This document shows, one piece after another, positions 7,105-28,961 of a stretch of DNA of 32,000 nucleotides (positions are counted from its first letter, which is position 1; every line of letters begins with the position of its first letter). Made by a program: the position numbers and the translations under genes. The notes beneath the pieces were generated by a model, which worked only from the letters and a program-made list of their open reading frames with translations, was not told the origin of the DNA and made no database searches. Source of the DNA: Schaalia odontolytica (GTDB taxonomy: Bacteria; Actinomycetota; Actinomycetes; Actinomycetales; Actinomycetaceae); the NCBI RefSeq assembly GCF_005696695.1, contig NZ_CP040006.1:2310001-2342000 (forward strand), given 5' to 3'.

Positions 7105-7117
7105 GCGCAAGTTGTTG

Positions 7118-7151
7118 AGGTGGGGGACCCCCGGGTGGGGGTCCCCCACCT
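7118..7151 (+). terminator. intrinsic-terminator-like hairpin after nhaC
   Basis: A perfect 15-bp stem, AGGTGGGGGACCCCC (7118-7132) / GGGGGTCCCCCACCT (7137-7151), with loop GGGT. It is followed by TGTTGTGTGTG. Confidence 0.7.
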
Positions 7152-7371
7152 TGTTGTGTGTGAACACCATGAGGCGCGTAGACGAGCAGCATTCCACTTG
7201 TATGTATGATCCACTGAAGATCGACGCACACACTTACTAACAACCACGCTATCGTGAGGCGCATGACAAAGACGTACATGAACGGCGAGGCAAACACGGA
7301 CCAACTCGCTCGCTTAGGTGACGTCTCAGCAACAAGATTCTGCTGTCCAACTAGCCAACGAAGGAAAAACC

Positions 7372-8679
7372 GTGCCTGACAGTCACGCAGCCAACGACAC
7401 GACGCACGTTCTATACAGGGAGGTAGACCAGGACTTCCTCAGTGACTTACGCAAGACCCTGGAAAGCACGAACATCAACTTCCTCCTGGGCGCTGGATGC
7501 TCAATGCCGGCGTTCAAAACTCTGGGCAATTTGGAAGAGCTGCGCGTCGAACTCGAAGAAAAGAAAGACAGCCTCGGGGAAAACAGGGACGTCATCTACC
7601 GCCTGATCAAGGCAGAGATAGATCGCATTTTCTTCATGGGTTCCATCTACCGCAATGTCGATTATGTGCCCAAAAGGATAGATTGCCCCGAAGAAGACAT
7701 TCAACAAACCAGAGCAGCCTACAAGGGTTTCTGCACTGAGGCGATTCAGACGGTTGCGAACAGAGAATCTGTCGACAAGCCGAAACAGGTTACGTTCTTC
7801 ACCTCGAATTACGACCTGTGTATGGACCTAGCACTCGACGAAGCGGAAATCCCGACTAACTCGGCATACCTGGGCCGTTTTGCCCGACGAGTTACACTAC
7901 AGACGTTCGGCAATCGCGTTTTCTCGAACGGTATCGGCCTCGGATACCGAACCGAAATCCCATCAGCAAACCTCGTGAAGATTCACGGATGCGCATCGTG
8001 GCGCGACGACGGCGATCATCTGACCATCGATGATAGCTATCAAATACTCGAAGAGATCAAGACACTGTTTAACACGATCAGCCGATTTGGTGAAGGCCAG
8101 CCTGAGATCAGGCCTAACGCCTCAGAGCCGAGCGAATCACGCGCAACAGAGACCAGCACCGAAACACCTGCAGACTTAGAGACACTGAAACGTCAGGCGG
8201 AAGCGACATTTGAGCGCGCAAAACAGGACGAACGCGGAGAACAGAATCTAGTTGACAAGCTCGATAAGCTAGACGAAGCACGCGACAAGTTGGCCGTCGT
8301 GCTTCCCAATAAAGGAAAATTCGCCTCAACCGTCCTTAACGAGACGTATTACGATCAGCTACGACGCCTGTCGAACCAGTTGGAGCTTCCTAACACGAGC
8401 CTTCTTGTGATGGGCTTTTCATTCGCAGACGAGCACATCCGTTCACTCATCACTCGTGCCGCTAAGGCGAATCCAACGCTGAAGGTCATTATCTTCTGCT
8501 ACTCCAAAGACACAACGAGAACGATTGCGGACTACCTGCGCTACTCCCCAAAGGAGTACCCGAACATCGAGCTAGTGGTCGGCCCCCGTTTTGGGCAAGC
8601 GCTCGGAACCGAAGCGAACGACCATCAACGTCTTGATATCCACGCGATCACTGAGATCCTCCGAAAGGCAAGCGCATGA
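7372..8679 (+). CDS. SIR2-like (SIR2_2 family) NAD-utilising protein, partner of the downstream HerA-like ATPase
   Basis: Motifs appear in the canonical order: NFLLGAGCS (Rossmann Gly loop), FFTSNYDLCMD (catalytic Asn), LVKIHGCASW (catalytic His) and LLVMGFSFADEHI. I chose GTG 7372 because GAAGGA lies 7-12 nt upstream. The ORF is open from GTG 7318. GC is much lower than in the flanking DNA. Confidence 0.8.
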   Translation: MPDSHAANDTTHVLYREVDQDFLSDLRKTLESTNINFLLGAGCSMPAFKTLGNLEELRVELEEKKDSLGENRDVIYRLIKAEIDRIFFMGSIYRNVDYVPKRIDCPEEDIQQTRAAYKGFCTEAIQTVANRESVDKPKQVTFFTSNYDLCMDLALDEAEIPTNSAYLGRFARRVTLQTFGNRVFSNGIGLGYRTEIPSANLVKIHGCASWRDDGDHLTIDDSYQILEEIKTLFNTISRFGEGQPEIRPNASEPSESRATETSTETPADLETLKRQAEATFERAKQDERGEQNLVDKLDKLDEARDKLAVVLPNKGKFASTVLNETYYDQLRRLSNQLELPNTSLLVMGFSFADEHIRSLITRAAKANPTLKVIIFCYSKDTTRTIADYLRYSPKEYPNIELVVGPRFGQALGTEANDHQRLDIHAITEILRKASA

Positions 8680-10679
8680 CCGATAACACTGGGAACGAGA
8701 CCTCATCGCTGCGAATCGGCACAGTGACGGCGGTGCGTGGAAGGCGGATCGATATCACTGTGGACGTCGACAAGAATGACTCCAGCTTGATTTTTCAGGG
8801 TGAGATCATCAACAACGTTTCAATTGGCTCATTTTTAGTCGTACGACGAGGATACGCACACCTCGTCGTACAAGTCGAGGAAGAAGAGCTCGTCGAGAAC
8901 AATGCATGGGAGAACAGCACCTACCAGCGGGATGTCGACCGCAACACACGCATCCTCAAGACGATCCTGCTCGGCGAATTCGAAACAGACACGTCAGTAT
9001 CACCGTTCCAAACACACTTTGTTTCTGGATCTCAAACAAGTCCACTCATCGGTAATATCGCGTACCTTGCGTCTGCGAAGCAAGCTTCAAAGATTTACGT
9101 ATCAGAGTCTGCACCAGGAACACAGATTACAATTGGACATTTAGCGAATGACATCACGATTCCATTTCCAATCGATATATCGTCATTCTTTTCAACCCAC
9201 ATTGGCATTTTTGGCAATACAGGTTCCGGAAAGTCGCACACTATCTTCCGAATTTACACTCAACTCTTTGAGAGAGCATACCAATACACGACTAATGGAC
9301 ACCCACTCAACTCCTCCCAGTTTATCCTATTCGACACGAATGGGGAATACCGACACCTAAGTCACTCCAACATATCAGGCACCCCGACTTTCGGACACAT
9401 TTATGGTCTACCGAAGTCAAAATCCGACACAATCGAACAACAGACAAATCTCATCCCACTACCAGAAACAACCATACAGGATATCGAATTTTGGATCAGC
9501 ATACTCGAGGCTTCAGAACGCAAGGAGCGCTATTTAATTGAAAGCACCCTCAGGGTAAAATTAAATTCCGACTCAACTCGTAGTATCACACAGGAGCTTC
9601 TGCATATGTTTTTCACATGGCGCACACAGAGCACACTTAGCCCACCGATGATGTTCTTAATCTTGCGCAGGATTCACACCATTGCCGATCCGAACCATGA
9701 GACATTCTCACACGAGATTCACAAGTTTGAAAAGTCCATCAAGTGGGATTCCAGAAATCAAACATACTATATTGATACACCATCGGATCCCTTGTACACA
9801 AGCTCCCCTTTTTTCGAGAATCACTTAGATTCATTTTTTAATCGCGCTTTCTCTAAAGATTTCACTAAAGAGCTAACGTCCCTCGACAAATTTGAACTAG
9901 CATTTTATCTCACCTTTATCGCAGCCACAATTTCAGGGCACAGAGATGAAGCGCACATCAACTCACTACTCGATCGCGTCATTGACCGAGTTAGCATTCT
10001 TCGAAAATGGTTCATCTTTACCACAACCGACAGTCCATCATATCCAGTCCTTCAGATCATCAACTTCGAACAGGCCACTCAGACCGAACGCTATCTGATC
10101 CCACTTATCACCATCCGTGCGCGATATATAGAACAGCGGCGGAGATCCATTTCACCCAAAAATCCCACTTATTTGAATTTCATCATTGAGGAAGCTCATA
10201 CTCTGTTATCGCACGGAAGGCGCATCGAAGACAATTTCCATCAAAATGCACTTCTCGATTTACTGGAGGAAATCATTACAGAAGGTAGACACTTCGGCAT
10301 TTTTCTTACAGTTTCCTCACAACGACCTTCCGAAATTTCGACAAGAATCACATCGCAGTTGCATCATTATTTAATTCATCGTCTAGTGAATCCCGCAGAT
10401 CTAGCCTGCATCCAAAGCGCGATCAGTTTTCTCGACAGCAAGTCCTTTGAGTCGATCCCATCATTACCGTGTGGTACCTGCATCATCTCCGGCACGAGCG
10501 TTCAGATTCCTGCCGTCGTCAAGATTGATGAATTGCCCGAGGGGCGCAGGCCCAACAACGAGACAATTGATCTCGTCAAGCTGTGGGGCCTAGCGCCTGA
10601 CTCTTCCGTGGATGCTGGTAGCACCGCAGCCGATTTGGCCGACACTCAAGACACAGAATCAACAGATGAAGTGCCTTAA
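8676..10679 (+). CDS. HerA-like (DUF87/FtsK-HerA superfamily) ATPase
   Basis: There is an N-terminal barrel-like segment (LRIGTVTAVRGRRIDITVDV...FLVVRRG..LVVQVEE), Walker A GIFGNTGSGKSHT, Walker B NFIIEEAHTLL, and EGRHFGIFLTVSSQRPSEIS...LIHRLVNPADL. The ATG overlaps the SIR2 stop (ATGA at 8676-8679). Sampled lines are about 40% GC. Confidence 0.85.
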   Translation: MTDNTGNETSSLRIGTVTAVRGRRIDITVDVDKNDSSLIFQGEIINNVSIGSFLVVRRGYAHLVVQVEEEELVENNAWENSTYQRDVDRNTRILKTILLGEFETDTSVSPFQTHFVSGSQTSPLIGNIAYLASAKQASKIYVSESAPGTQITIGHLANDITIPFPIDISSFFSTHIGIFGNTGSGKSHTIFRIYTQLFERAYQYTTNGHPLNSSQFILFDTNGEYRHLSHSNISGTPTFGHIYGLPKSKSDTIEQQTNLIPLPETTIQDIEFWISILEASERKERYLIESTLRVKLNSDSTRSITQELLHMFFTWRTQSTLSPPMMFLILRRIHTIADPNHETFSHEIHKFEKSIKWDSRNQTYYIDTPSDPLYTSSPFFENHLDSFFNRAFSKDFTKELTSLDKFELAFYLTFIAATISGHRDEAHINSLLDRVIDRVSILRKWFIFTTTDSPSYPVLQIINFEQATQTERYLIPLITIRARYIEQRRRSISPKNPTYLNFIIEEAHTLLSHGRRIEDNFHQNALLDLLEEIITEGRHFGIFLTVSSQRPSEISTRITSQLHHYLIHRLVNPADLACIQSAISFLDSKSFESIPSLPCGTCIISGTSVQIPAVVKIDELPEGRRPNNETIDLVKLWGLAPDSSVDAGSTAADLADTQDTESTDEVP

Positions 10680-10734
10680 TGCTGTCCCTTGGCAGACATG
10701 AAGCATCTCCACCGCGCACGGCCAAACTGTGAGG

Positions 10735-10768
10735 GGGGGTGGGGTTCCCAACCGGGAACCCCACCCCC
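10735..10768. terminator. bidirectional terminator-like hairpin between the convergent HerA-like and dhaL genes
   Basis: A perfect 15-bp stem, GGGGGTGGGGTTCCC (10735-10749) / GGGAACCCCACCCCC (10754-10768), with loop AACC. Confidence 0.65.
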
Positions 10769-10792
10769 ACAGCGAACTGCTAAGCCGCAGCC

Positions 10793-18550: not shown

Positions 18551-18578
18551 TTGTGTGTCGTAGATTACCCGCTATTCT
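18551..18578 (+). promoter_or_regulatory. putative promoter giving a leaderless or near-leaderless Type ISP transcript
   Basis: TTGTGT (18551-18556), a 16-nt spacer, then TATTCT (18573-18578). ATG 18586 lies 7 nt after the -10 box, with no SD sequence. Confidence 0.3.
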
Positions 18579-18585
18579 TGGTCGC

Positions 18586-21500
18586 ATGACTGCTGCGCGC
18601 GACGACGACTTCATGGCTCTGCCCGGTATGGAAGCGGATTCCACCGAGACCCACCACGGCCGGGAACGTTTGTCAGATGAAGCCACCCCCACCTCCCCAA
18701 ACGCCTCCTCGAAGTCAGCGCTCGATGCCCTGCTGGATGAGTACCGTGCGCGCGCGAAGAGCGAGCGCGAGAAGGGCACGCTGTTTGAGGAGCTGACGCG
18801 TCAGTTCCTGCTCCACGATGCGCGTTTCGCGCACCAGTTCAAGGAAATCTACCTGTGGAGCGAGTGGCCCGAGCGCCGCACAGGCGACACGGGTATTGAC
18901 CTGGTGGCGATCCCGGTCGACGAAAACGCAGGCCCGGTCGCCATCCAGTGCAAGTTCTACGCGCTGGGTCATCGCATTCAGAAGGCGGACATTGACTCGT
19001 TCCTGTCGGCGTCGGGCAAGGAGCCGTTCGGTCGCCGCATCGTCGTGGACACGTCGGGCGCGCCGTGGGGCAAGAACGCGCAGGACGCGATCGAGGGCCA
19101 GCAGATCCCGGTTTCCCGCATCACACTGGCAGATCTGCGCGATTCGGACATTGATTGGCGCACGTATTCGCTGGGTTCGACGCAGGCGCCGAAGACCCGC
19201 GAGCGCAAGGTTCCGCGCGACCATCAGGTGCGTGCGCGCAGCGCGGTGATATCGGGCTTCGAGGAGCACGACCGCGGCACGATGGTCATGGCGTGCGGCA
19301 CGGGTAAGACGTTCACGGCGCTCACGATCGCGCGCGAGTTCGTGGAGAAGGAGGGCGGCACCGCCCGGATCCTGTTCGCTGTCCCCTCGCTCGCGCTTCT
19401 CAAGCAGACGCTGGACGATTGGGCGGCCGAGGCCGATGGCGCGTTCACGGCGTGGGCGGTGTGTTCGGATACGAAGGTGTCCTCGTCGGCGCGTAACGAC
19501 ACGGCCGAGGAGTCGGCGGTGGACCTGCCGATCCCGGCGACGACAGACGGCCAGCGCCTCGCGGACTCCCTGAATGCGAATAACACGACGGAGGGACTGC
19601 AGGTCGTCTTCGCGACGTACCAGTCGATCGAGGTCATTCACCGCGCGCAGGAGATCGCGGGCGATGAGTGGCGCGATTTCGACCTGATCATCTGCGACGA
19701 GGCCCACCGCACGACGGGTGCGACGCTGACGGGCGAGGACGAGAGCGCGTTCACGAAGATCCACAGCGACGAGTTCATCCGCCGTGCGAAGACCCTCTAC
19801 ATGACGGCAACGCCGCGTATTTTCGCGGAGAACGCGAAGAATAGGGCGTCGGAGAAGGACGCGATCCTGACTTCGATGGACGACCAGGAGACCTACGGTC
19901 CGGTGTTCTTCCGCCTGGGCTTCGGCCAGGCGGTGAAGGAGAACCTGCTGACGGACTACAAGGTCATCATCCTGACGGTCAGTGAGGAGGAGGTGTCGCA
20001 GCACTATCAGGCGATCGCCGAGATGGGCGGCGAGCTGAACCTGGACACGGCCGCGAAGCTGACGGGCTGCTGGAACGCGCTGGCTAAGCGCAAGAATCGC
20101 GGCTCGGACGTGGACTACGGCGAGGATCGTGCGCCGATGCGCCGCGCCGTGGCCTTCTGCAAGGACATCAAGGCCTCGAAGGCGGTGGCCACACAGTTCC
20201 CGGACCTGGTAAACGGCCCCTTTGGCCTGAGCGACCTCAGCAACGATGACGCGTCGGATAACCTGCAGGTCGAGTGCCGCCACGTGGACGGCACGATGAA
20301 CGCCGCGGTGCGTGCACGCGAAATGGATTGGCTGACCGAGGGCGCGGGCACGGACGAGGTCCCGGTGTGCCGCATCCTGACGAACGCGCGCTGCCTGAGC
20401 GAGGGCGTGGACGTGCCCACGCTGGACGCGGTGCTCTTCCTGTCGCCGCGCAAGTCGCAGGTGGATGTCATCCAGGCGGTGGGCCGCGTGATGCGCCGCG
20501 CGGAGGGCAAGGATTTCGGTTACATCATCTTGCCCGTGGCCGTGCCGGTGGGCATGGCGCCGGAGCGCGCGCTGGACGACAACAAGCGCTTCCAGGTCGT
20601 ATGGCAGGTCCTCAAGGCCCTGCGCGCCCACGACGAGCGCCTGGACGCGGCGATCAACTCGATGGAGCTCAACGGCCAGGGGCCGGAGAACATCATCGTC
20701 GAGCAGGTCTCCCTCGAGAAGGCGAAGAAGCAGGACGATCCGCTCGGGGGCAGTGCACCCGATGGGGACGAGGCCGGGGCCGGGTCCTCGGGTTCCGGAG
20801 CGGACGGCGTGGCCCAGGGCATCCAGGGTCAGCTGACGCTTCTTCCCTCGGATTGGAAGGAGTCGGTGTTCGGCCGGATCGTGAAGAAGGTGGGCTCGTC
20901 CCTGTACTGGGAGGACTGGTCCAAGGACATCGCGACCGTGGCGGACCGCTACATTCACCTCATCGATCGCCTGCTGGAGGATCCGGAGCGCCAGGACGCG
21001 TTCCAGGAGTTCGTGAACGCGCTGCGCGCAACCCTAAACCCAGCCGTGGACAACGAGTCGGCGGTGGAGATGCTGGCCCAGCACATTCTCACCGCGCCGC
21101 TGTTTGACGCGATGTTCCCGGATCATTCGTTCTCGAAGCAGAACCCGGTGAGCCGCGCGATGAACACGATCGTGGAGATGCTGGCGTCGCACTCGATGTT
21201 CGAAAACGAGCGCCGCGAGCTGGATTCCTTCTATCGGGCGATGGTCGAGCGCATCGAGGCCGTGCACACCCTGGCGGGCAAGCAGGAGATCATGCGCACG
21301 CTCTACGACCGCTTCTTCTCCCAGGCCTTCCCACGCATGAGCGAGCGCCTGGGCATCGTCTTCACGCCCGTCGAGGTCGTCGACTTCATTATCCGCAGCG
21401 CGGATGATGCAATGCGCACGGCGTTTGGCCAGAGTCTGGGGGATCCGGGCGTGGCTATCATCGAGCCTTTCGCCGGAACCGGCACCTTCGTGGCGCGCCT

Positions 21501-23712
21501 GTTGCAACTGGGCGTCATCCCGCCCGAGGCCCTGGAACGCAAGTATAAGAACGAGATCTTCGCGAACGAGTTCGTGCTGCTCTCCTACTACATCGCGTCA
21601 ATCAACATCGAGCAGGTCTACCACCAGGTGCGCGCCGAACAGGGCGTGGACGAGGGCTACGTCGAGTTCCCCGGCATGACCCTGACGGACACCTTCCAGC
21701 TCCACGAGGGCGACGGCACGATCACCGAGGACTTCGAGGGCCTGGCCGCCAACAACGAGCGCGCGAAGGCGGAGAAGGATTCCGCAATCACGGTGATCGT
21801 GATGAACCCGCCGTACTCAGCGGGCCAAAAGGAAGAGAACGACAAGAACAAGAATCTCAAGTACCCCCGTCTGGACGAGAGAATCGAAGAAACGTACGTC
21901 CGCCAATCTGGAGCTGGCCTGATGACCAAGCTCTACGATTCCTACTTCCGCGCCCTGCGCTGGGCGTCGGACCGAATCGGGGCGCGGGGCGTCATCGCCT
22001 TCGTCTCCAACAGCTCCTTCCTCGATGCGAACAGCACAGACGGTGTGCGTCTTACACTGCAGGATGAGTTCTCCCAAATCTTCGTCTACGACATGAAGGG
22101 GAACGCACGAACATCCGGTGAGCGCCGGCGACGCGAAGGCGGAAACGTTTTCGAGTCTGGTTCTCGCACGGGTGTAGCCATCACCATCCTAGTGAAGGAC
22201 CCCACCCACTCCAGCACCGCCGAGATCTTCTACGCGGAGGCGGAGGACTACGCGACGCGGCAGGAGAAGCTCGACCAGATCACCAACTACGGATCCATTG
22301 AGGGGATCAGCGGAACAGATGCATTCCGCACCATCACGCCGAACGAGCACGGCGACTGGATCAGTACACGCGACGAGCATTTTGCTACCTTCCAAGAAAT
22401 CGGCAATCAAGCCCTCAAGGGAAAGATGGCTTCTCCAGGCATTTTCCAACAATTCTCACTTGGATTGGGAACAAACCGTGATGCATGGTGCTACAACTTC
22501 TCAGGTACGGCTGTGTCCTCGAACATGCACCGCATGATCGACAATTACAATTCACATGTTAAAGCCAAACGTACGAGCGCAAACGCAACCACGGATGCCA
22601 CGCAAATTAATTGGAATGATCGACTGCTTCGAGACCTCAACAGCCAGAAGATTCACCATTACGAGCACGCAGCGCTACGCGTGAGCATGTATCGTCCCTT
22701 CTGTATACAACATGTATATTTCTCAAGGGAAATGAACAATAGAACATATCAGCTTCCGCAACTCTTCCCTACAATTGCACACAGAAATCTATCCTTCGTA
22801 GTCTCCAGAGGGGATATTACAAAAATTGGTCCGCTAATGACCGACTTTCTCCCCGACCTGCATCTTGTGGGAGATGCGCAGACATTCCCCCTCTACACCT
22901 GGGAGCCCCTCTCCCCCACCTCCGGTGGCGAGCCGGACCTGTTCGCGGACCTGGCAACCTCCTCGGAGAGCCAGGCGGATGGGGTGGCCACGGCCTCGTC
23001 ACTTGATTTCTCGCGGCCGATCGGCGACCAGATCCCGGTGATCCTGGACGGCTATCGCCGCGTCGATAACGTCACGGACGCGACGCTAGCCTCGTACCGG
23101 GAGCACTACGGGGATGCGGGGATCACGAAGGAGGACATTTTCTTCTACGTGTACGCGCTGCTGCATCACCCGGAGTATCGGGAGCGCTACGAGGATGATT
23201 TGAAGAAGATGCTGCCGCATATTCCTCGTGCGGCGGGTTTCCACACGTATGCGAGTGTGGGCCGCGAGCTGGCGGACCTGCACGTGAACTACGAGCGGGT
23301 GGAGCCGTATCCGTCGGTGCAGGAGGAGGCGAGCTTGCACGCGCCTGCCGACCCGTGGGAGCGCTACCGGATCGGTGAGCGCAAGATGCGTTTCCCGAAG
23401 CTGGGGCGCCGCGATAAGGACTTTACGCGCTTGGAGTACAACGACTACGTGACCCTGACGGGCATTCCCGCAGAGGCGCAGGGCTATTCAATTTCGGGCC
23501 GCAGCCCGCTCGAGTGGATCATCGACCGCTACCACGTCAAGACGGACAAGGCGTCGGGCATCGTCAACGACCCGAACGACTTCCTGCGCGAGCAGGGCCG
23601 CCCCGACGCGGTCGTAGACCTGATCAAGCGCCTGGTGACCGTCTCGATGCGAACCCAGGAGCTCCTGGCGACGCTGCCCGCGTTGGAGATTCCGGAAGGG
23701 GCAGACCAATGA
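18586..23712 (+). CDS. Type ISP restriction-modification enzyme (Mrr-like nuclease + SF2 translocase + N6-adenine methyltransferase + specificity/C-terminal domain in one polypeptide)
   Basis: Nuclease: GIDLVAIP...VAIQCKFY. Helicase: MACGTGKTFTA, ICDEAHRTTG, YMTATPR, QAVGRVMRR. Methyltransferase: IEPFAGTGTF and VMNPPYSAGQ...YPRLDERIEETY. The C-terminal FPLYTW...MLPHIP block is as in LlaGI/LlaBIII-type enzymes. The start is uncertain (GTG 18553, ATG 18586 or downstream Met codons). Confidence 0.85.
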   Translation: MTAARDDDFMALPGMEADSTETHHGRERLSDEATPTSPNASSKSALDALLDEYRARAKSEREKGTLFEELTRQFLLHDARFAHQFKEIYLWSEWPERRTGDTGIDLVAIPVDENAGPVAIQCKFYALGHRIQKADIDSFLSASGKEPFGRRIVVDTSGAPWGKNAQDAIEGQQIPVSRITLADLRDSDIDWRTYSLGSTQAPKTRERKVPRDHQVRARSAVISGFEEHDRGTMVMACGTGKTFTALTIAREFVEKEGGTARILFAVPSLALLKQTLDDWAAEADGAFTAWAVCSDTKVSSSARNDTAEESAVDLPIPATTDGQRLADSLNANNTTEGLQVVFATYQSIEVIHRAQEIAGDEWRDFDLIICDEAHRTTGATLTGEDESAFTKIHSDEFIRRAKTLYMTATPRIFAENAKNRASEKDAILTSMDDQETYGPVFFRLGFGQAVKENLLTDYKVIILTVSEEEVSQHYQAIAEMGGELNLDTAAKLTGCWNALAKRKNRGSDVDYGEDRAPMRRAVAFCKDIKASKAVATQFPDLVNGPFGLSDLSNDDASDNLQVECRHVDGTMNAAVRAREMDWLTEGAGTDEVPVCRILTNARCLSEGVDVPTLDAVLFLSPRKSQVDVIQAVGRVMRRAEGKDFGYIILPVAVPVGMAPERALDDNKRFQVVWQVLKALRAHDERLDAAINSMELNGQGPENIIVEQVSLEKAKKQDDPLGGSAPDGDEAGAGSSGSGADGVAQGIQGQLTLLPSDWKESVFGRIVKKVGSSLYWEDWSKDIATVADRYIHLIDRLLEDPERQDAFQEFVNALRATLNPAVDNESAVEMLAQHILTAPLFDAMFPDHSFSKQNPVSRAMNTIVEMLASHSMFENERRELDSFYRAMVERIEAVHTLAGKQEIMRTLYDRFFSQAFPRMSERLGIVFTPVEVVDFIIRSADDAMRTAFGQSLGDPGVAIIEPFAGTGTFVARLLQLGVIPPEALERKYKNEIFANEFVLLSYYIASINIEQVYHQVRAEQGVDEGYVEFPGMTLTDTFQLHEGDGTITEDFEGLAANNERAKAEKDSAITVIVMNPPYSAGQKEENDKNKNLKYPRLDERIEETYVRQSGAGLMTKLYDSYFRALRWASDRIGARGVIAFVSNSSFLDANSTDGVRLTLQDEFSQIFVYDMKGNARTSGERRRREGGNVFESGSRTGVAITILVKDPTHSSTAEIFYAEAEDYATRQEKLDQITNYGSIEGISGTDAFRTITPNEHGDWISTRDEHFATFQEIGNQALKGKMASPGIFQQFSLGLGTNRDAWCYNFSGTAVSSNMHRMIDNYNSHVKAKRTSANATTDATQINWNDRLLRDLNSQKIHHYEHAALRVSMYRPFCIQHVYFSREMNNRTYQLPQLFPTIAHRNLSFVVSRGDITKIGPLMTDFLPDLHLVGDAQTFPLYTWEPLSPTSGGEPDLFADLATSSESQADGVATASSLDFSRPIGDQIPVILDGYRRVDNVTDATLASYREHYGDAGITKEDIFFYVYALLHHPEYRERYEDDLKKMLPHIPRAAGFHTYASVGRELADLHVNYERVEPYPSVQEEASLHAPADPWERYRIGERKMRFPKLGRRDKDFTRLEYNDYVTLTGIPAEAQGYSISGRSPLEWIIDRYHVKTDKASGIVNDPNDFLREQGRPDAVVDLIKRLVTVSMRTQELLATLPALEIPEGADQ

Positions 23713-24339
23713 AAGCACAAGGTAACCAGCCTATTGCACTATTCAAACGGCACCCGCGCACCGATCCAAAATCCCTCGTGATGCATAACCAAGTATACCG
23801 CCTGGGCGAGTTATCAGAAGCGCATTATGAATCCACAGTAGTCATTTCCAGCAAGTTCGACGGACAAGCTACATCCGACACTTTCCTTCTACCTTATCTA
23901 TTCCTAATGCGCCACGCCTTCGAATTATCACTCAAAGATGGAATAATAGTTCTCAAAAAAACTTAGAATAGAGCACTTTGTTGCAGATCCGGAAGTAGCA
24001 TTCAACTACATGTCACCAATTGACTACGTTACTGATATCGGACACAATTTAATGAAGCTCTTTAACGAATTCAAACGAGAATATAATTCATTTGACTTCA
24101 TGGATAGGTTCCCCAAAGGAGTTGAAACTGCATTAATTCTTCTCCACCAAGCAGATAAATAGAGCACCGAATTTAGATACGGCACGGAGCCGCAGGATGA
24201 ACCGTCACATATCGACTCAGCATCACTCTGCGCAGAACTGAGTACACAATTCCAAAAACTATCGACTGTTATCGACTACGCTTGTGGCACCTGCTCATAC
24301 CTTCCCATTGCTCGATATCAGGGCAGTGTCAATGTGTGA
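23709..24339 (+). pseudogene. HEPN-like domain gene, disrupted (A-tract frameshift, in-frame amber codon, 3' end replaced by IS30 end)
   Basis: The ATG overlaps the Type ISP stop (ATGA at 23709-23712). The frame shifts by +1 at the A7 run (23955-23961). There is an in-frame TAG at 24160-24162. HEPN-like helices LMRHAFELSLKD, DIGHNLMKLFNEF and (TAG)STEFRYG are present. The last 7 codons lie inside the IS30 inverted repeat. GC is about 40%. Confidence 0.6.
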
Positions 24340-25384
24340 TAGCAATGAGCTGGTTGAACCCTTTGAGGGTGCGTCTGGGGCAGTTGTTCAGTTCATTGAC
24401 GATGGCTTCGAGGTAGGGTTGGTGGGTGGTGATGGGGTTCGTTTGGGCAGGTAGTGACGGAAGAGTCGGTTGGTGTTTTCGTTAGTCCCGTTTCTCAAAG
24501 ACTGTGGGGGTCAGCGAAGAACACGTCTACGCCAATGCCTAGGATGAGGCGCTGGTGGTGGGTCATTTCTCGTCCCCTTGGCCCCCGTGTCAGTTGCCTC
24601 GCACCGTTGGGGAGTGGGGTGAATACGGCGGGTGAACGCGTCACAGACTTGGTCGACCCTCCGCCCGAGAGGCAGAACCACCATAAATCAGGTAGCGGAT
24701 GGCTGCCTCGACCAGGATTGTCTGCGCAATAGCCCCATCTCGGCTGATACGTGAGGTCACCTTCGAGGTGCCCATGATTCTTCGGTAGGCAATGTTGGCG
24801 CACCTCAATCGATTAATCACGTTTCAATCATCGGTGGCGAAAAATCACCCGCTCGGTCTATCTTGCAGATCCACCACGCGGAGGGCAAGCAAATGCTGTG
24901 ATCGATCAACGTCTACTTGGGTTGGGCGTAGATCCAGGTTCGATCGCCTCACGGCTAATCGCAACCGTGGGCGTCGGGAGAATTGTCCGTAGGAACCACT
25001 GTGCCACACACCTCAGCACTCAGACGTCGATCTGCCCTGGCGGGGCGTGCGCCCCTGCGACAAATCAGAGATAACACATCGGCGAAGAGCCATATCACGG
25101 TCCCGAAGCCACATCTTGGGCGATCCTCGCGGCTAGTGCCACGCTCAGGGCTTTCTCGGCCTGATACACGCCGTCAGGACCTGCATGGCGGGCGACCTAG
25201 CGGCATTCCACCGAGGGGATAGGCCCAACCCAACGAGCGATACGAACCCTAGGAGAGGCCCACCTCCAAGCCCGCCATGATCACCACACGATTCCAAACA
25301 CTGCACATCAGACGACAGTTCACAACCACCCACCCAACAGCATTAGTACCACACAAATTGCTCACAGCCTATGACACTGCCCTG
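24319..25384 (-). mobile_element. IS30-family insertion sequence (about 1.07 kb) with a decayed transposase
   Basis: The terminal inverted repeats are CAGGGCAGTGTCA... at 24319 and ...TGACACTGCCCTG ending at 25384. A further imperfect match (TGTGA..GCAAT) extends the repeat to about 28 bp. The internal minus-strand frames carry IS30 transposase motifs. Confidence 0.75.
24329..25278 (-). pseudogene. IS30-family transposase, multiply frameshifted
   Basis: Minus-strand fragments: VFFADPHS, then a frameshift, then LRNGTNENTNRLFRHYLPK, then another frameshift, then LEAIVNELNNCPRRTLKGFNQ. These correspond to the DDE C-terminal region of IS30 transposases. The N-terminal HTH-like pieces contain stops. 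Confidence 0.7.
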
Positions 25385-25405
25385 TGTTGAGGCTATCCTT
25401 GCAGT

Positions 25406-26266
25406 ATGGCTTTTTCTGCAACAGTACTCCGGGTAGCGATAGCGTCTCCGTCTGACGTCCCCGAATCGCGTGATGCAGTTGAAAGAGCACTTCACTCGTG
25501 GAATGAGGCCAACTCAGCCACGAAGAATGTCATGCTACTGCCGTGGAGATGGGAAACATCGTCAGTTCCCAAGCTCGGCAAGCATCCCCAAGTATTTGTC
25601 AATGAGCAGGGGGTTGATAAGGCAGACATAGTCATTGCCCTATTCGGTAGCAGGCTCGGAACTCCGACGCCTGAAGCAATCTCAGGAACCGTAGAAGAGA
25701 TCGAACGATCCGTAGAACACGGGAAACACGTACATCTCTATTTTTCTGAAGCCCCTCATCCAAATGACGTGGACGTTGAGCAGCTGAGCGCTCTTCGTTC
25801 TTTTCGTGAAGAGATCAGCGAAAGAGGACTCCTTGCGACATTCGCAAACCCGAGTCAGCTAGAACATAAGGTCTGGCAAGCAATCGAGCTAGACGTCTCA
25901 GAACTTGTTGACGGCGGGCAAGTTTTGACTCCAGCAAAAAAACGCGGAGCACAGTTTCGCGTCCAGTCGAAGCAAAGCCAGCAGCTCAAAGAAACAGACT
26001 CGCGAGGCAGAGCGAAATACACAACGAAGCACTGGCTAGAGGTCACGAACATCGGAGATTCCGCTGCCGAAAACGTAACATTTAGAGCAGAAGCCACTTC
26101 AGGTCCAATTTTTCTTGTCACGCCAGAACAGCCAATTCGACTCGATCCTAATGTGACCTGGAAGCTCAATTTCGACCTAACACTGGGGACTGGTGGCAGG
26201 CTCCAGCTGATCATTAGCTGGGATGAAAACGAAGATCACAAGACAGAACGCTTCGACTTTCAGTAG
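25406..26266 (+). CDS. uncharacterised two-domain protein: N-terminal TIR/DUF4062-like Rossmannoid domain plus C-terminal beta-rich (Ig/CARDB-like) domain
   Basis: N-terminal layout: LRVAIASPSDVPESRDAVERAL, LLPWRWE, ADIVIALFGSRLGTPTPEAISGTVEEIE, HVHLYF. C-terminal strands: WLEVTNIGDSAAENVTFRAE, VTWKLNFDLTLG, LQLIISW. GAGG lies 13 nt before the ATG. GC is about 47%. Confidence 0.55.
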   Translation: MAFSATVLRVAIASPSDVPESRDAVERALHSWNEANSATKNVMLLPWRWETSSVPKLGKHPQVFVNEQGVDKADIVIALFGSRLGTPTPEAISGTVEEIERSVEHGKHVHLYFSEAPHPNDVDVEQLSALRSFREEISERGLLATFANPSQLEHKVWQAIELDVSELVDGGQVLTPAKKRGAQFRVQSKQSQQLKETDSRGRAKYTTKHWLEVTNIGDSAAENVTFRAEATSGPIFLVTPEQPIRLDPNVTWKLNFDLTLGTGGRLQLIISWDENEDHKTERFDFQ

Positions 26267-26291
26267 GGCTACGCAAGCTTCGTCCCTGCAA

Positions 26292-26618
26292 TCAGCACTC
26301 AACCAGCGGCTTCCGATTTGAACCACCCAGGCAGCCAGCGAACACGAGCCACCAACTTTGTAGCAAGCCTGGCAGGATAGCTTCGAGAAGGTAGTCGGTG
26401 GCATGGACATCGACCATCTCAGCCATGAGTCTTGTAGCGTGCTCAGGAGCGAGTACGACAACGAGACCAGAGCCGTCTCCTCCGCCATAAGAAATGAACT
26501 CTTGGTAGCAGTTACCGAGAATGTCAGAGTTGATCGTTGAGCGGCCGGTGACGACGTGGTACACGTCGTCGGTGAGGATGTTGGTCATCCACTTCAGGGG
26601 CAACTGAGGCGTCTTCAT
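26292..26618 (-). pseudogene. 3' fragment of an unknown gene truncated by the ISL3 insertion
   Basis: Third codon positions are biased toward C/G, so the frame looks coding. However, its first 11 nt (ATGAAGACGCC) lie inside the ISL3 left inverted repeat (26608-26633), so the start codon is IS-derived and the true 5' part is missing. Confidence 0.45.
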
Positions 26619-27820
26619 AGTTGGGTGTGGGTGACAGGTGTTGGTCGGGGGTTACAGATAGAGGTTGAGTTTCTTGATGATGAGCGGGCTTCAATCCCCG
26701 CCTTCTCCAAGGACCCAAGTGGTGTCTTACCCTGCCTGATGTTGTTCTGCTTCGCTTGACCGGTGCAAGCGGTTTGATCTGCTCGTTGGGATGGAGGGTT
26801 TCCACCTCACAGGTGCAGCGCACTGCCAAGGGATCATGGTGCAGGATACTGAGTCGTGCAACCAGGTGGTGGGATGTCCTGAGTGTGGGGTAATTGCACA
26901 GGGCCATAAACGAGTGTAGGTGGAGATGATTGACGCGCCGTGGGCCGGGACGCGGACGCGGGTTAGGCGGGACAATACGGCGCTGGTGCTGCCGCGAAAA
27001 CGCCTGTCAGACGGTGACGTTCGTGGAGCACAATATGCGCGTGTGTGCCCTCAAGACGCGTGTAGATGTGCGGGCAATTCGGTGAGCGATCCGTCAGTTG
27101 CGCTTTTTGGGAGCCACCATCGCATATCTGGCCCGCCAGCTAAGCACGGGCGTAACACCGTGTGGTCCTAAATCAAATCCCTCTTCCAAGCTGCGGCCGA
27201 TCATCCCGACCGTTTCGCAGGCGTGCGGGCTCTAGGGGTGGATGAACACGTGTAGCACCACCAGAACAGACGCCAACGCGGCCCCATAGGCTCACCGGTA
27301 TCAAAACTCACCCGAGGAGAGACCACACCGCAGCCCACTTGCTGGACCTGGTCCCAGGCAGGTCTGGAACCATGTACAAGAACTGGCTGGCCAAGCGCGG
27401 CGAGCAGTTTCGCTCCGGCATCCAGCTCATGACACTGGACCCCTTCCACGGGCAGCACACACGCCATCGATTACCAACTCTAAGACGCCACCAGCGCCTC
27501 CAATGCCTTCCATGCCGATGAGGCGCACATCAGTGTCCAAGTCGCCTACTGTTACGATCAGCAAGGCCGAGGTTTACCAGACTGCCCCGTCCCCGAGCTT
27601 GCTCGCCAAAGGGTAAACCTTGGGGCGACGAAAAAAGGCGTTCTCGGCCTACTTCGACACCGACCGAGCAAACAACGGACCCACGGAAGCCACCAATAGA
27701 ATCCTAGAACTAGGCATACGAAACGCCAGAGGCTACCGCAACCCGACCAACTACCAACTCCGAATGCCCCTCATCGCAAGAGGCTTAGACGCCTCCACCC
27801 ACACCCAACTATGAAGAGCC
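26608..27820 (+). mobile_element. ISL3-family insertion sequence (1.2 kb), degraded
   Basis: IRL is GGCGTCTTCATAGTTGGGTGTGGGTG (26608-26633). The reverse complement of 27796-27820 is GGCTCTTCATAGTTGGGTGTGGGTG, giving 1 mismatch over 25 nt. Flanking 8-mers differ, so no target-site duplication remains. Confidence 0.8.
26710..27814 (+). pseudogene. ISL3-family transposase with stops, frameshifts and an internal deletion
   Basis: Fragments: DLLVGMEGFHLTG...GCPECGVIAQGHKRV*VEMIDAPWAGTRTRV; ..WNTVW-like; RLLDLVPGRSGTMYKNWLAKRGEQFRSGIQLMTLDPFHG; and the C-terminus YFDTDRANNGPTEATNRILELGIRNARGYRNPTNYQLRM. The 5' limit is approximate. Confidence 0.75.
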
Positions 27821-27859
27821 ACATCACCCGAGCACTCCTCGAAACAGGAGGATTCAGAA

Positions 27860-27887
27860 CCCAACTACACCCCAATTATCAAGAGCC
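27860..27887. repeat. solo ISL3-like terminal repeat remnant
   Basis: CCCAACTACACCCCAATTATCAAGAGCC resembles the IRR 40 bp upstream (CACCCAACTATGAAGAGCC) and has the same orientation. Confidence 0.45.
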
Positions 27888-27981
27888 CCGAATAGCACAC
27901 AACAGTCCTGGGCAGAATAACCAGACCATAACGATCCAGTGTTCCAAGATCTTTGGTCTCCTACCCCTACGAGACAATATT

Positions 27982-28009
27982 GCCTCCGCGCGGACATCCG
28001 CGCGGAGGC
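27982..28009 (-). terminator. terminator hairpin downstream of the membrane-protein gene
   Basis: A perfect 12-bp stem, GCCTCCGCGCGG / CCGCGCGGAGGC, with loop ACAT. It lies 22 nt after the stop at 28032 on the minus strand and is followed by AATATTGTCTC. Confidence 0.65.
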
Positions 28010-28031
28010 GGCACCATGATTGGGATTGGCA

Positions 28032-28961
28032 CTAGCTGAGCCAGGTTGGCTGCACGTAGCGGAAGAGCACGACGATCAGCGCTGGCACGCAGGCAAGCAG
28101 CAGGGCACCCAGGATGTAGTGCCAGCCCGGAACGGGAAGATGATCAACAAACCAGGTAGTGACTCCGCCCGCACGGCGCGTGGCAAGTCGGCGCTCTAGG
28201 AACTCTCGAATCATCATCGCAAGAGCAAAGAAGCAGAGCACAGCCGTCACGAGCATCGCCATGAAGGCCACTGAAACATAGGGGAAGGCTTGTTCAGCAC
28301 TGAGGAGATGGAAGGCATCGGCGAACGGTACCAGCTTCTCATCCCCGGCAGCTTCAGACAGCATTCGGCTTAGATCCGGCATCGACAGTCCGGACTTTCC
28401 TGTGGACAAGGTGAAGGACGACCAGTAGGTCGCGTAGGCAGAGGTAACCGCGAAGATACTTGCAACGATGGAGGAGCGAAGAGGCTTCGACACGTGCCTA
28501 CTCCGCAACGATAGGCCTGTAGTCAGCAATGACATCGTCATCAAGAACACGGAAGTGATGACGAGGATACCCACCAGAATCTCGTAGTACCTCATGAGGA
28601 AGATAGCAATGACGACGAAGGCAGCAAAGCCAAGGCCAATCATCAGCCACATGTCCCCATCGCTATCGGCCCTCGCCGACCTGCTCTCACCGGCGACAGT
28701 CACATGTGTCGAGTTGTCGTCACCAATATGCGTATAGTTTCGATCGCCGGCAACCATGGCGACATCACCATTCGCTGCCATCACCTGTTGGGTTACGGCG
28801 CCTCGTCCTGATGCTGTAGGTTCCGGAGCCATTGAGCCATCCGGGACCAGTTTCGCAAGAATGATCCCGGAGACAACGCCTGACACAACGCCAATCACAA
28901 GTTCAACAATCCAAGACACGGTCTTTCCTTTCTTATCGATCGCGGTCTTCATCGACAGCAT
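28032..28961 (-). CDS. uncharacterised polytopic membrane protein
   Basis: An N-terminal TM helix (WIVELVIGVVSGVVSGIILAKL) is followed by a roughly 70-aa Gly/Asp/Val-rich soluble stretch, then about 5-6 further TM helices. An alternative GTG start at 28919 is preceded by AAAGGAAAG. I recognise no family. Confidence 0.6.
   Translation of the reverse strand: MLSMKTAIDKKGKTVSWIVELVIGVVSGVVSGIILAKLVPDGSMAPEPTASGRGAVTQQVMAANGDVAMVAGDRNYTHIGDDNSTHVTVAGESRSARADSDGDMWLMIGLGFAAFVVIAIFLMRYYEILVGILVITSVFLMTMSLLTTGLSLRSRHVSKPLRSSIVASIFAVTSAYATYWSSFTLSTGKSGLSMPDLSRMLSEAAGDEKLVPFADAFHLLSAEQAFPYVSVAFMAMLVTAVLCFFALAMMIREFLERRLATRRAGGVTTWFVDHLPVPGWHYILGALLLACVPALIVVLFRYVQPTWLS

What the first reader, a model, noticed from the sequence alone, without database searches (positions are those of the whole stretch)
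7318..10679. Intact, horizontally acquired SIR2 + HerA-like ATPase two-gene module
**Seen in sequence**
- Two genes are fused by an ATGA start/stop overlap.
- The first carries the SIR2_2 motif series (GAGCS, SNYD, KIHGC, GFSFADEH).
- The second carries a HerA-type architecture: barrel-like N-terminus, Walker A GNTGSGKS, Walker B IIEEAH, SSQRPSEIS and RLVNPADL.
- Sampled lines are about 38-50% GC, against about 67% in the flanking nhaC.

**Established knowledge**
- SIR2-HerA pairs (also called Nezha) are anti-phage systems. A HerA hexamer scaffolds SIR2 NADase subunits, and infection triggers NAD+ depletion.

**Inference**
- This is a functional defence cassette dropped between two core operons of a high-GC actinobacterium. 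Its composition suggests a much lower-GC donor.
- It is the only fully intact accessory system in the window, and both proteins look divergent from textbook examples. That makes it the best candidate for a new subtype.
Basis: partly seen in the sequence, partly recalled or inferred. Interest (0 to 1): 0.8.

Follow-up and report, generated by a model that had tools for sequence, protein, structure and literature searches.

The report
SIR2–HerA phage defence cassette, mosaic HerA
This is an intact two-gene SIR2–HerA anti-phage cassette of a known kind, inserted between two sugar/ion-transport operons of the oral bacterium Schaalia odontolytica; its one unusual feature is that the HerA ATPase core comes in at least eleven very different versions across strains, while SIR2 and the part of HerA that binds SIR2 in solved complexes stay nearly constant.

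Summary
Two overlapping ORFs, SIR2 (7372/7318–8679) and HerA (8676–10679), carry all the quoted motifs and have GC3 of 0.51–0.57 against 0.87–0.90 in the flanks.

Both proteins match PADLOC SIR2–HerA models (1e-50 and 1e-113). The catalytic Asn/His and Walker A/B residues are invariant. AlphaFold models hit solved SIR2–HerA complexes first. SIR2 sits directly upstream of HerA in every homologous locus inspected.

The cassette (about 7152–10714) lies exactly between the convergent terminators of nhaC and dak2. Related genomes show this slot empty or holding native-GC sugar operons. The "horizontally acquired defence cassette" reading is therefore supported.

Two claims fail. It is not the only intact defence system, because a full Type ISP restriction enzyme lies at 18553–23712. 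It is also not a new type, because existing PADLOC models cover it; it is an uncharacterised member, 14–20% identical to solved systems.

The unexpected result concerns HerA across S. odontolytica-complex strains. SIR2, the HerA β-barrel and the C-terminus are about 85–90% conserved. The ATPase and helical-bundle core (residues ~196–595) falls into 11 classes sharing only 32–50% identity, with saturated synonymous sites. A sister clade does not show this mosaic.

The parts
7118..7151 (+). nhaC terminator hairpin (perfect 15-bp stem, 4-nt loop, followed by TTGTTGTGTGT). It marks the left edge of the variable slot.
   Evidence: Inverted repeat I8. Terminator scan. MFE of window 7105-7165, which contains the hairpin: -42 kcal/mol, z -5.7. 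Homology of genomes with other cargo ends at 7151/7152.
7152..7371 (+). Cassette-specific 5' non-coding leader, the presumed promoter region, with the SIR2 ribosome-binding site GAAGGA at 7360-7365.
   Evidence: Sequence read. It is 87-96% conserved among cassette-bearing loci and absent from genomes with other cargo. No sigma-70 consensus site was found in it, so the promoter is inferred, not shown.
7372..8679 (+). SIR2_2-family NADase gene (435 aa; an alternative upstream GTG at 7318 would give 453 aa). In 435-aa numbering: NAD-binding loop GAGCS 40-44, catalytic N146, D148 and H205, and GFSFADEH 348-355. A clade-specific insertion spans roughly residues 225-305, partly disordered and then two helices.
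   Evidence: Pfam SIR2_2 3.5e-12. PADLOC SIR2 PDLC04080 9.7e-51. PDB sequence hits 8yhx and 8j4u. Invariant residues in A2. AF2 pLDDT 76. Foldseek top 39 hits are all SIR2 subunits of SIR2-HerA complexes. dN/dS 0.22-0.35.
8676..10679 (+). HerA-type ATPase gene (667 aa), translationally coupled to SIR2 by the ATGA overlap. Walker A is GNTGSGKS 180-187 (K186), Walker B FIIEE 502-506, and SQRP 548-551.
   Evidence: Pfam DUF87 1.4e-15. PADLOC HerA PDLC04097 1.2e-113 over the full length. PDB HerA hits. AF2 pLDDT 77.5. Foldseek top hits 8wld, 8yhx, 8wiv, 8sub and 8j4u.
8676..9104 (+). HerA N-terminal beta-barrel (HAS) domain, residues 1-143. By analogy this is the SIR2-docking module. It belongs to the conserved 'frame' shared by all alleles.
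   Evidence: Beta-strands E13-E131 in the model. Pairwise identity 70-100% (median 90%) among 72 Schaalia-clade sequences. dN/dS 0.07. The docking role comes from PMC11472057.
9261..10460 (+). HerA variable core, residues ~196-595: the RecA-like ATPase halves plus the inserted alpha-helical bundle (~266-445). The window carries one of at least 11 deeply divergent classes found at this locus.
   Evidence: Inter-class identity 32-50%, with the bundle at 21-31% to the window. Synonymous sites are saturated between classes and dN/dS is 0.20-0.30 within the class. GC is 40-44% in all classes examined. The best non-self representative is 36% identical.
10461..10679 (+). HerA C-terminal segment. Residues ~596-640 are conserved among alleles; the acidic tail 641-667 is predicted to be disordered.
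   Evidence: Median pairwise identity 85%. pLDDT below 50 for residues 643-667.
10680..10714 (+). Short cassette-specific 3' tail. The right edge of the cargo is at about 10714.
   Evidence: Junction comparison with L099, L103 and L106: the shared dak2-side flank extends 78 nt beyond the dak2 stop.
10735..10768 (-). dak2 terminator hairpin (perfect 15-bp stem, 4-nt loop). It is native to the dak2 3' end and marks the right edge of the slot.
   Evidence: Inverted repeat I9. MFE of window 10725-10792 (minus strand), which contains the hairpin: -47.5 kcal/mol, z -5.5. It is present next to dak2 in genomes that lack SIR2-HerA.

Best explanation
The 3.56-kb segment at about 7152-10714 is a functional two-gene SIR2-HerA (Nezha-type) abortive-infection defence operon of Schaalia odontolytica.

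Proposed mechanism, by analogy with solved systems (inferred):
- HerA forms a ring ATPase whose N-terminal beta-barrels dock an oligomer of SIR2.
- SIR2 NADase, with catalytic residues N146 and H205, is held inactive until infection.
- Phage-derived cues and DNA ends act through HerA, including an ATP checkpoint, and release NAD+ hydrolysis. This arrests the infected cell.

Origin: the cassette is foreign DNA lying exactly between the convergent terminators of nhaC and dak2. It carries no mobility gene. It is most likely gained, lost and re-assorted by homologous recombination in or near the conserved flanks.

Within the species complex the HerA ATPase/helical-bundle core has been exchanged repeatedly. 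SIR2 and the SIR2-docking barrel have been kept.
For: Shown here:
- Family assignment by Pfam, PADLOC, and PDB sequence and fold searches.
- The catalytic Asn/Asp/His align to SaSir2 N226/H287 and PsSIR2 N163/D165/H212 and are invariant in 52 homologues.
- Walker A Lys, Walker B acidic residues and SQRP are conserved.
- The genes are translationally coupled.
- SIR2 lies immediately upstream of HerA in loci whose HerA is 100%, 86%, 53%, 40% and 32% identical.
- Purifying selection acts on both genes.
- The identical protein is found on at least 24 contigs from independent samples.
- GC3 is 0.51-0.57 against 0.87-0.90 in the flanks.
- L110 and L112 are empty sites, and native-GC sugar operons occupy the slot in other genomes.
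- The boundaries fall at the two terminators.
- HerA is a mosaic, and the sister-clade control lacks the pattern.

From the literature: the mechanism and the barrel docking (PMC11472057, PMC11514289, PMC13434337).
Against: - No experiment has been done: anti-phage activity, NADase activity and complex formation are all inferred.
- NCBIfam equivalog models for anti-phage SIR2 and HerA hit far below their cut-offs (80 of 500 bits and 122 of 850 bits), so this is not an equivalog of the characterised proteins.
- Identity to solved systems is only 14-20%.
- HerA-DUF4297 and archaeal HerA-NurA HerAs match the HerA model almost as well as SIR2-HerA HerAs, so the HerA fold alone is not diagnostic.
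- The HerA appears to lack the long C-terminal arm domain of the Paenibacillus protein, and the SIR2 has a clade-specific insertion, so stoichiometry and gating may differ.
- The empty site comes from a somewhat diverged lineage (Dak2 88-89% aa). Insertion rather than deletion is inferred from composition, not shown.
Confidence: 0.82

Rival explanations
1. It is a SIR2-HerA system, but it works by the recently described E. coli 'type III' logic rather than the Nezha helicase/nuclease logic. In type III, a phage SSB-type trigger activates a HerA nickase, DNA ends drive ATP consumption, and the ATP checkpoint on SIR2 is then released. Another as yet undescribed gating scheme is also possible.
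For: E. coli alone holds subtypes that differ by 13-22% identity and in their enzymology (PMC13434337). This cassette is equally distant (14-20%) from all solved systems. It also differs in architecture, with a SIR2 insertion and a short HerA C-terminus.
Against: Nothing in the sequence assigns it to type III. No nuclease or nickase motif was identified here.
Confidence: 0.3
2. The pair is an inactive or domesticated remnant. It still resembles SIR2-HerA but no longer defends, or SIR2 now acts as a protein deacylase or regulator with a HerA DNA-repair translocase.
For: The host's own annotation is generic: 'SIR2 family protein' and 'ATP-binding protein'. NCBIfam equivalog thresholds are not met. 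SIR2 dN/dS of 0.22-0.35 is relaxed compared with the flanking genes.
Against: - Both ORFs are intact in all alleles seen and all catalytic motifs are invariant.
- dN/dS is well below 1.
- The SIR2 belongs to the SIR2_2 clade, and all 39 of its top structural hits are defence SIR2s, not sirtuin deacetylases.
- No NurA partner is present.
- The locus has a defence-like context, with a Type ISP enzyme nearby, and directly adjacent in the sister clade.
Confidence: 0.07
3. The mosaic HerA pattern reflects differential constraint only: a slowly evolving barrel and a fast-evolving core diverging in place from one ancestral cassette, with no recombination.
For: The barrel has non-trivial synonymous divergence (dS 0.64-0.82) with very low dN/dS of 0.07. 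Strong protein-level constraint therefore does contribute to its conservation.
Against: - In the sister clade, barrel and core co-diverge (r = 0.92). None of 136 pairs combines a barrel at or above 80% with a core at or below 50%.
- Between classes, core synonymous sites are saturated (pS 0.78-0.82), while SIR2 dS is 0.27-0.37 and flank dS is 0.15-0.26 in the same genome pairs.
- Nucleotide identity changes stepwise at about 9104 and 10454.
- The core GC (40-44%) differs from the frame GC (48-53%).
- Micro-mosaics occur among near-identical cassettes.
Confidence: 0.1

Closest known systems
SIR2-HerA / Nezha anti-phage system: E. coli (PDB 8J4U, 8SU9, 8SUB, 8UAE), Paenibacillus sp. 453MF (8WLD, 8WIV, 8W9L) and Staphylococcus aureus (8YHO, 8YHX)
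   Same: - Two co-directional overlapping genes, SIR2 first.
- A SIR2_2 NADase with the GAGxS loop and catalytic Asn/His.
- A HerA with beta-barrel, RecA-like core, helical bundle and Walker A/B.
- These are the best structural matches for both proteins.
   Different: - Only 14-20% identity, and below the NCBIfam equivalog cut-offs.
- The SIR2 carries an insertion of about 80 residues between the catalytic His region and the C-terminal Rossmann half.
- The HerA ends in a short conserved segment plus a disordered acidic tail, not the roughly 120-residue arm domain described for the Paenibacillus HerA.
- Stoichiometry and triggers are unknown.
PADLOC-DB v2 SIR2-HerA subfamily models PDLC04080 (SIR2) and PDLC04097 (HerA)
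   Same: The HerA model matches over its full length (1.2e-113, profile 4-612 of 618). The SIR2 model matches at 9.7e-51 in two stretches. The subfamily is therefore already catalogued bioinformatically.
   Different: The SIR2 match is split by the clade-specific insertion. No member of this subfamily is experimentally characterised, as far as the literature searched here shows.
E. coli Sir2-HerA types I-III (Zhang et al., NAR 2026, PMC13434337)
   Same: It shows the same phenomenon of deep diversification of Sir2-HerA within one species or species complex, and of HerA being subtype-specific: swapping HerA between types abolishes defence.
   Different: In E. coli, Sir2 and HerA cluster congruently and the subtypes are separate systems. 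Here one chromosomal slot holds a near-constant SIR2 and HerA barrel combined with at least 11 divergent HerA cores. Type I-III sequences were not compared here.
HerA-NurA (archaeal DNA-end resection) and HerA-DUF4297 defence complexes
   Same: The HerA fold and ATPase motifs. Foldseek E-values are only 2-5 orders of magnitude weaker than for SIR2-HerA HerAs.
   Different: The partner gene here is a SIR2_2 NADase. No NurA or DUF4297 gene is present in the cassette.

Membership tests
SIR2-HerA (Nezha-type) anti-phage system | SIR2_2-family protein with an NAD-binding GAGxS loop and catalytic Asn and His | tested here: met
   Pfam PF13289 at 47 bits, above the 24.5-bit cut-off. PADLOC SIR2 models reach 1e-50. 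N146, D148 and H205 (435-aa numbering) align to SaSir2 N226/H287 and PsSIR2 N163/D165/H212 and are invariant in 52 sequences.
SIR2-HerA (Nezha-type) anti-phage system | HerA-type ATPase: N-terminal beta-barrel, RecA-like domain with Walker A/B, and an inserted helical bundle | tested here: met
   Pfam PF01935 at 58.5 bits, above the 23.2-bit cut-off. PADLOC HerA PDLC04097 1e-113. The AF2 model shows barrel strands 13-131, a helical bundle at about 270-445 and the RecA halves. Foldseek to SIR2/HerA complexes gives E = 1e-31. K186, E505/E506 and SQRP are conserved.
SIR2-HerA (Nezha-type) anti-phage system | The two genes are adjacent, co-directional and conserved as a pair across homologues | tested here: met
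   ATGA overlap. SIR2_2 lies immediately upstream of HerA in every homologous locus inspected, with HerA identity of 100, 86, 53, 40 and 32%, and in the metagenome loci L100-L105 and L140-L142.
SIR2-HerA (Nezha-type) anti-phage system | The SIR2 subunit belongs structurally to the SIR2-HerA clade rather than to ThsA, DSR, SPARSA or sirtuin deacetylases | tested here: met
   The top 39 Foldseek PDB hits are all SIR2 chains of SIR2-HerA entries (5e-12 to 1e-7). The next hits, ThsA and KomC, are at 5e-5.
SIR2-HerA (Nezha-type) anti-phage system | SIR2 oligomer docked on a HerA hexamer (supramolecular complex) | not testable with these tools
   No multimer prediction is available. The only indirect evidence is the co-conservation of SIR2 with the HerA barrel, which is the docking domain in PMC11472057.
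SIR2-HerA (Nezha-type) anti-phage system | Phage protection with infection-triggered NAD+ depletion, dependent on the SIR2 and HerA catalytic residues | not testable with these tools
   This requires experiments.
NCBIfam equivalogs SIR2_antiphage (NF042942) and HerA_antiphage / HerA_antiphage_2 (NF042943, NF042944) | Whole-protein score at or above the curated cut-off | tested here: not met
   80 bits against a 500-bit cut-off, and 118-122 bits against 800-850. It is a homologue, not an equivalog of the characterised proteins.
E. coli Sir2-HerA types I-III (PMC13434337) | Sequence clustering with a type I, II or III representative | not tested
   The representative sequences are not in the PDB and are not available to the tools used. 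Only the Nezha cluster (8J4U) was compared, at 15% identity.
HerA-NurA DNA repair module / HerA-DUF4297 defence system | NurA nuclease or DUF4297 partner encoded next to HerA | tested here: not met
   The only neighbouring gene in the cassette is the SIR2_2 gene. There are no NurA or DUF4297 hits.
Thoeris (ThsA/ThsB) | SIR2 fused to a SLOG domain, plus a TIR-domain ThsB | tested here: not met
   There is no SLOG or TIR hit. ThsA matches only weakly (5e-5, TM about 0.2).

The most novel reading that the evidence does not exclude
The nhaC-dak2 SIR2-HerA locus of the Schaalia odontolytica complex is a polymorphic immunity locus. A constant effector frame (SIR2, the HerA docking barrel and the C-terminus) is combined by recombination with interchangeable HerA ATPase/helical-bundle cores. 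At least 11 ancient core classes exist. The window's class has no relative above about 36-39% identity among 15 billion proteins. The classes would be maintained by phage-driven balancing selection. If so, the HerA core, and the helical bundle in particular, would be the determinant of phage-trigger specificity or the target of phage inhibitors. That determinant is the open question for SIR2-HerA systems.
Probability: 0.35. Interest if true: 0.7.

Novelty: new member of a known kind. Interest (0 to 1): 0.45.

Why it matters
As a defence system it adds little. SIR2-HerA is well described, and existing HMMs already recognise this subfamily.

Its value lies in the natural experiment the locus offers. 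Many strains of one oral species complex carry the same SIR2 and the same SIR2-docking barrel, joined to very different HerA cores in the same chromosomal slot. How SIR2-HerA senses phages, and which part confers specificity, is unresolved; triggers were only recently found for one E. coli subtype (PMC13434337). Chimeras already made by nature point to the HerA RecA/helical-bundle module as the candidate specificity or counter-defence interface. They also supply ready-made swap constructs to test this.

The locus also documents an integrase-free variable slot, bounded by two convergent terminators, in a human oral commensal.

Tried and rejected
- **Flanking hairpins as insertion scars.** I asked whether the two similar hairpins (7118-7151 and 10735-10768) are a target-site duplication, an att site or a dispersed REP-like element. 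The motif occurs only at these two sites in the window. Junction comparison shows that each hairpin is the native terminator of its flanking gene and is present whatever the cargo, including at the empty site. Rejected.
- **Empty site from the nhaC side.** The genome-contig search with NhaC gave no clean empty site, because the nhaC 3' end is a synteny breakpoint across species; rhamnose-type, RpiB/ABC-type or metY/metX-like genes follow it. The empty site was found from the Dak2 side in metagenome contigs.
- **The slot as a dedicated defence hotspot.** The alternative cargos are native-GC sugar-utilisation operons. Rejected.
- **Mobile-element vehicle.** No tRNA was found. No integrase or transposase ORF lies in or next to the cassette. 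There is no phage match, and the only plasmid matches are 126-nt motif hits in lactobacillus plasmids.
- **Donor of the window's HerA core.** The full-length search and the exhaustive core-only search found nothing above about 36-41% identity outside its own class.
- **Literature on hypervariable or mosaic HerA in defence systems.** The search returned nothing relevant.
- **My own error.** I first set the SIR2 start at 7373, one base off, which gave nonsense amino-acid identities. This was corrected to 7372; the nucleotide identities in that call are unaffected.


Full report
**1. The observation.**
The region holds exactly two long ORFs on the + strand: 7318..8679 and 8676..10679. They overlap by ATGA (ATG 8676-8678, TGA 8677-8679) and a GAAAGG site lies 7 nt upstream, which indicates translational coupling.

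The SIR2 start is more likely GTG 7372, giving 435 aa. It is preceded by GAAGGA, public gene calls use it, and distant homologues begin at or after that point.

The compositional anomaly is real:
- GC is 52.6% for SIR2 and 46.1% for HerA, against 64.5% for nhaC and 71.1% for dak2.
- GC3 is 0.57 and 0.51, against 0.87-0.90 in the flanks.

**2. What the genes are.**

*Sequence profiles.*
- Pfam gives SIR2_2 (3.5e-12) and DUF87/HerA (1.4e-15), both above their gathering scores.
- PADLOC gives SIR2 PDLC04080 (9.7e-51) and HerA PDLC04097 (1.2e-113, profile positions 4-612 of 618).
- The NCBIfam anti-phage SIR2 and HerA equivalogs hit, but far below their cut-offs. This agrees with the generic public names 'SIR2 family protein' and 'ATP-binding protein' in Schaalia odontolytica.

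*Solved structures.* By sequence, the closest SIR2s are those of the S. aureus (8YHX) and E. coli (8J4U) SIR2-HerA complexes. For HerA, sequence comparison ranks the HerA-DUF4297 entries 8XAU and 9C1M first, closely followed by the SIR2-HerA HerAs 8WIV and 8YHO; the E. coli Nezha HerA (8J4U) is far weaker at 2.8e-12.

*Catalytic residues.* The published catalytic residues are SaSir2 N226/H287 (PMC11514289) and PsSIR2 N163/D165/H212 (PMC11472057). They align to N146, D148 and H205 in 435-aa numbering, which are invariant in a 52-sequence alignment. HerA K186 (Walker A), E505/E506 (Walker B) and SQRP 548-551 are invariant or nearly so.

*Predicted folds.* The AlphaFold2 models have pLDDT 77.5 for HerA and 76.1 for SIR2.
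- HerA matches the SIR2/HerA complexes best (8WLD, 8YHX, 8WIV, 8SUB, 8J4U; E 1e-31 to 1e-28), with HerA-DUF4297 and HerA-NurA close behind.
- For SIR2, the top 39 hits are all SIR2 chains of SIR2-HerA entries. There is then a gap of about seven orders of magnitude to ThsA and KomC.

*Co-occurrence.* A SIR2_2 gene sits immediately upstream of HerA in loci whose HerA is 100, 86, 53, 40 and 32% identical to the window's.

*Selection.* Both genes are under purifying selection. dN/dS is 0.22-0.35 for SIR2, 0.07 for the HerA barrel and 0.20-0.30 for the HerA core within its class.

None of the refutation criteria named in the finding is met.

**3. Where it sits and how it got there.**
The window is from S. 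odontolytica (GCA_001462375.1).

*Boundaries.* Homology of related genomes carrying other cargo stops at window 7151/7152, the 3' end of a perfect 15-bp hairpin after nhaC. On the other side, the flank shared with genomes lacking the cassette runs from dak2 through a second perfect hairpin (10735-10768) to about 10715. The cargo is therefore about 7152-10714.

*The hairpins.* Both are strong hairpins (−42 and −47.5 kcal/mol for the folded 61- and 68-nt regions that contain them, z about −5.6). Each is the native terminator of its flanking gene in every state of the slot, so they are not insertion scars.

*States of the slot.*
- Empty: nhaC and dak2 are convergent and about 275 bp apart in L110 and L112.
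- SIR2-HerA: the window, L002-L009, L016-L018, L100, L102, L104, L105, L140 and L142.
- A rhamnose-type catabolic/ABC cluster of about 10.9 kb (L019 and L045, joined to L099, L103 and L106).
- An RpiB/ABC cluster of about 5.7 kb (L036, joined to L109 and L113).

The sugar clusters have native GC3, and only SIR2-HerA is compositionally foreign. I found no tRNA, integrase, transposase or direct repeats, and no phage or plasmid copy.

*Inference.* The cassette was acquired from an unidentified lower-GC source. It now moves among strains by homologous recombination through the conserved flanks. The polarity (insertion rather than deletion) rests on composition, because the empty site comes from a somewhat diverged lineage (Dak2 88-89% identical).

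**4. The unexpected feature: a mosaic HerA.**

*Window versus strain CP046315.* Nucleotide identity is about 95% in the flanks. It is 77-97% across SIR2 and 81-88% across HerA codons 1-143. It then drops to 35-62% from about 9104 to about 10453 and returns to 80-84% at the HerA 3' end.

*Across 72 Schaalia-clade HerA sequences.*
- The barrel (residues 1-135) has pairwise identity of 70-100%, median 90%.
- The C-terminus (600-640) has a median of 85%.
- The core (160-580) has a median of 39%. It falls into 11 classes at 65% clustering, which share only 32-50% identity with one another.
- The helical bundle (266-445) is 21-31% identical to the window's in all classes other than its own.

SIR2 in the same clade is unimodal, at 78-98% identity. 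The conserved-to-variable transitions lie at about residues 144-195 and 566-596.

*Same slot.* Four core classes were verified in the same nhaC-dak2 slot.

*Age of the cores.* Between classes, synonymous sites in the core are saturated (pS 0.78-0.82). In the same genome pairs, dS is 0.27-0.37 for SIR2 and 0.15-0.26 for the flanks. The cores are therefore old lineages brought together by recombination, not rapid divergence in place.

*Composition.* Core GC (40-44%) is lower than frame GC (48-53%) in every class examined.

*Control.* In the sister clade (P0072-P0089), barrel and core co-diverge (r = 0.92). None of 136 pairs combines a conserved barrel with a divergent core. The pattern is therefore not a generic difference in constraint between domains.

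*Motifs.* ATPase motifs are retained in all classes except the P0066 class, whose Walker B reads FEGARD.

*Donor.* An exhaustive search with the window's core against 1.84 billion representative proteins found nothing better than 36% identity, and only 16 hits at E ≤ 1e-30.

**5. Interpretation of the mosaic (inference).**
In the Paenibacillus complex, SIR2 docks through its N-terminal helix between two HerA beta-barrels (PMC11472057). In E. coli, exchanging whole HerA proteins between subtypes abolishes defence, and the triggers are phage proteins such as the SSB Gp2.5 (PMC13434337).

Keeping SIR2 and the barrel together while exchanging the ATPase/bundle core would preserve the effector interface and vary whatever the core does: sensing, DNA handling, or being a target of phage inhibitors. 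This is a hypothesis. The sequence data show the mosaic itself but not its selective cause.

**6. Claims that fail or need tempering.**
- The cassette is not the only intact accessory system in the window. ORF 18553-23712 is a full-length Type ISP restriction-modification enzyme. Pfam finds Mrr_cat_2, ResIII, Helicase_C, ISP_coupler and Type_ISP_C. PADLOC PDLC03597 scores 2896 bits over profile positions 2-1646 of 1646.
- 'New subtype' is only true in the sense that no characterised system is closer than 14-20% identity. Bioinformatically the subfamily is already covered by PADLOC models.

**7. Verdict.**
This is a real, intact, horizontally acquired SIR2-HerA defence operon, and a new member of a known kind. 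The base finding is of modest interest. The population-level HerA core polymorphism raises it, because it makes the question 'which part of SIR2-HerA determines specificity?' directly testable.

Noticed in passing
window 18553-23712 (+): A full-length 1719-aa Type ISP restriction-modification enzyme. Pfam finds Mrr_cat_2, ResIII/DEAD, Helicase_C, ISP_coupler and Type_ISP_C. PADLOC REase_MTase_IIG PDLC03597 scores 2896 bits over the whole profile. Its GC3 of 0.82 is host-like. It is a second intact defence gene in the window.
   Followed up: partly
L010 1-7932 (also L011, L012): In the sister clade (HerA 40% identical, P0080), a Type ISP enzyme gene lies immediately upstream of SIR2-HerA. The two systems are directly adjacent there and about 8 kb apart in the window, which suggests a recurrent association.
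   Followed up: no
window 23500-30500, especially 25406-26266 (+): A lower-GC stretch (46-58%) with few long ORFs. The 286-aa ORF at 25406-26266 matches only the N-terminal ~180 positions of the 906-position PADLOC candidate PDC-S60 (1e-24), and DUF4062 below threshold. ORF 29123-30049 carries DUF6318. This may be a degraded island or defence remnant.
   Followed up: partly
window 7152 and ~10714; L019, L045, L099, L103, L106, L036, L109, L113, L110, L112: The nhaC-dak2 intergenic slot is a multi-state variable region in the S. odontolytica complex. It can be empty (~275 bp), hold SIR2-HerA, hold a rhamnose-type cluster of about 10.9 kb, or hold an RpiB/ABC cluster of about 5.7 kb. It is always bounded by the two convergent terminator hairpins and has no mobility genes.
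   Followed up: yes
proteins P0066-P0071 (HerA core class 1): One HerA core class has a degenerate Walker B (YLNFIFEGARD instead of hhhhD/E-E-A-H). The catalytic glutamate position is Gly, so this class may bind ATP but not hydrolyse it.
   Followed up: no
proteins P0076 and P0081: These HerA proteins are about 40% identical to the window's overall (barrel 44%), yet their C-terminal segment (residues ~594-640) is 85-87% identical to it. The C-terminal module also appears to be exchanged between otherwise distant HerAs.
   Followed up: no
L002 (region aligned to window 8504-8603) and L016 (aligned to window 9204-9486 and 9683-9761): Short divergent patches (70-81% nucleotide identity) occur inside cassettes that are otherwise 93-100% identical to the window. 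These micro-mosaics indicate frequent recombination within the cassette.
   Followed up: partly
window 7372-8679, SIR2 residues ~225-305 (435-aa numbering): A clade-specific SIR2 insertion splits the PADLOC and PDB matches. It has an acidic, low-complexity segment predicted to be disordered (243-266), followed by two confident helices (269-283 and 289-305). It is shorter or different in sister clades, and its role is unknown.
   Followed up: partly
L020-L025 downstream of nhaC: In several related Actinomyces/Schaalia genomes, nhaC is followed by two conserved ORFs of 448 and 386 aa that I read as metY/metX-like without running a profile search, not by dak2. The nhaC 3' end is therefore a synteny breakpoint at genus level.
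   Followed up: no
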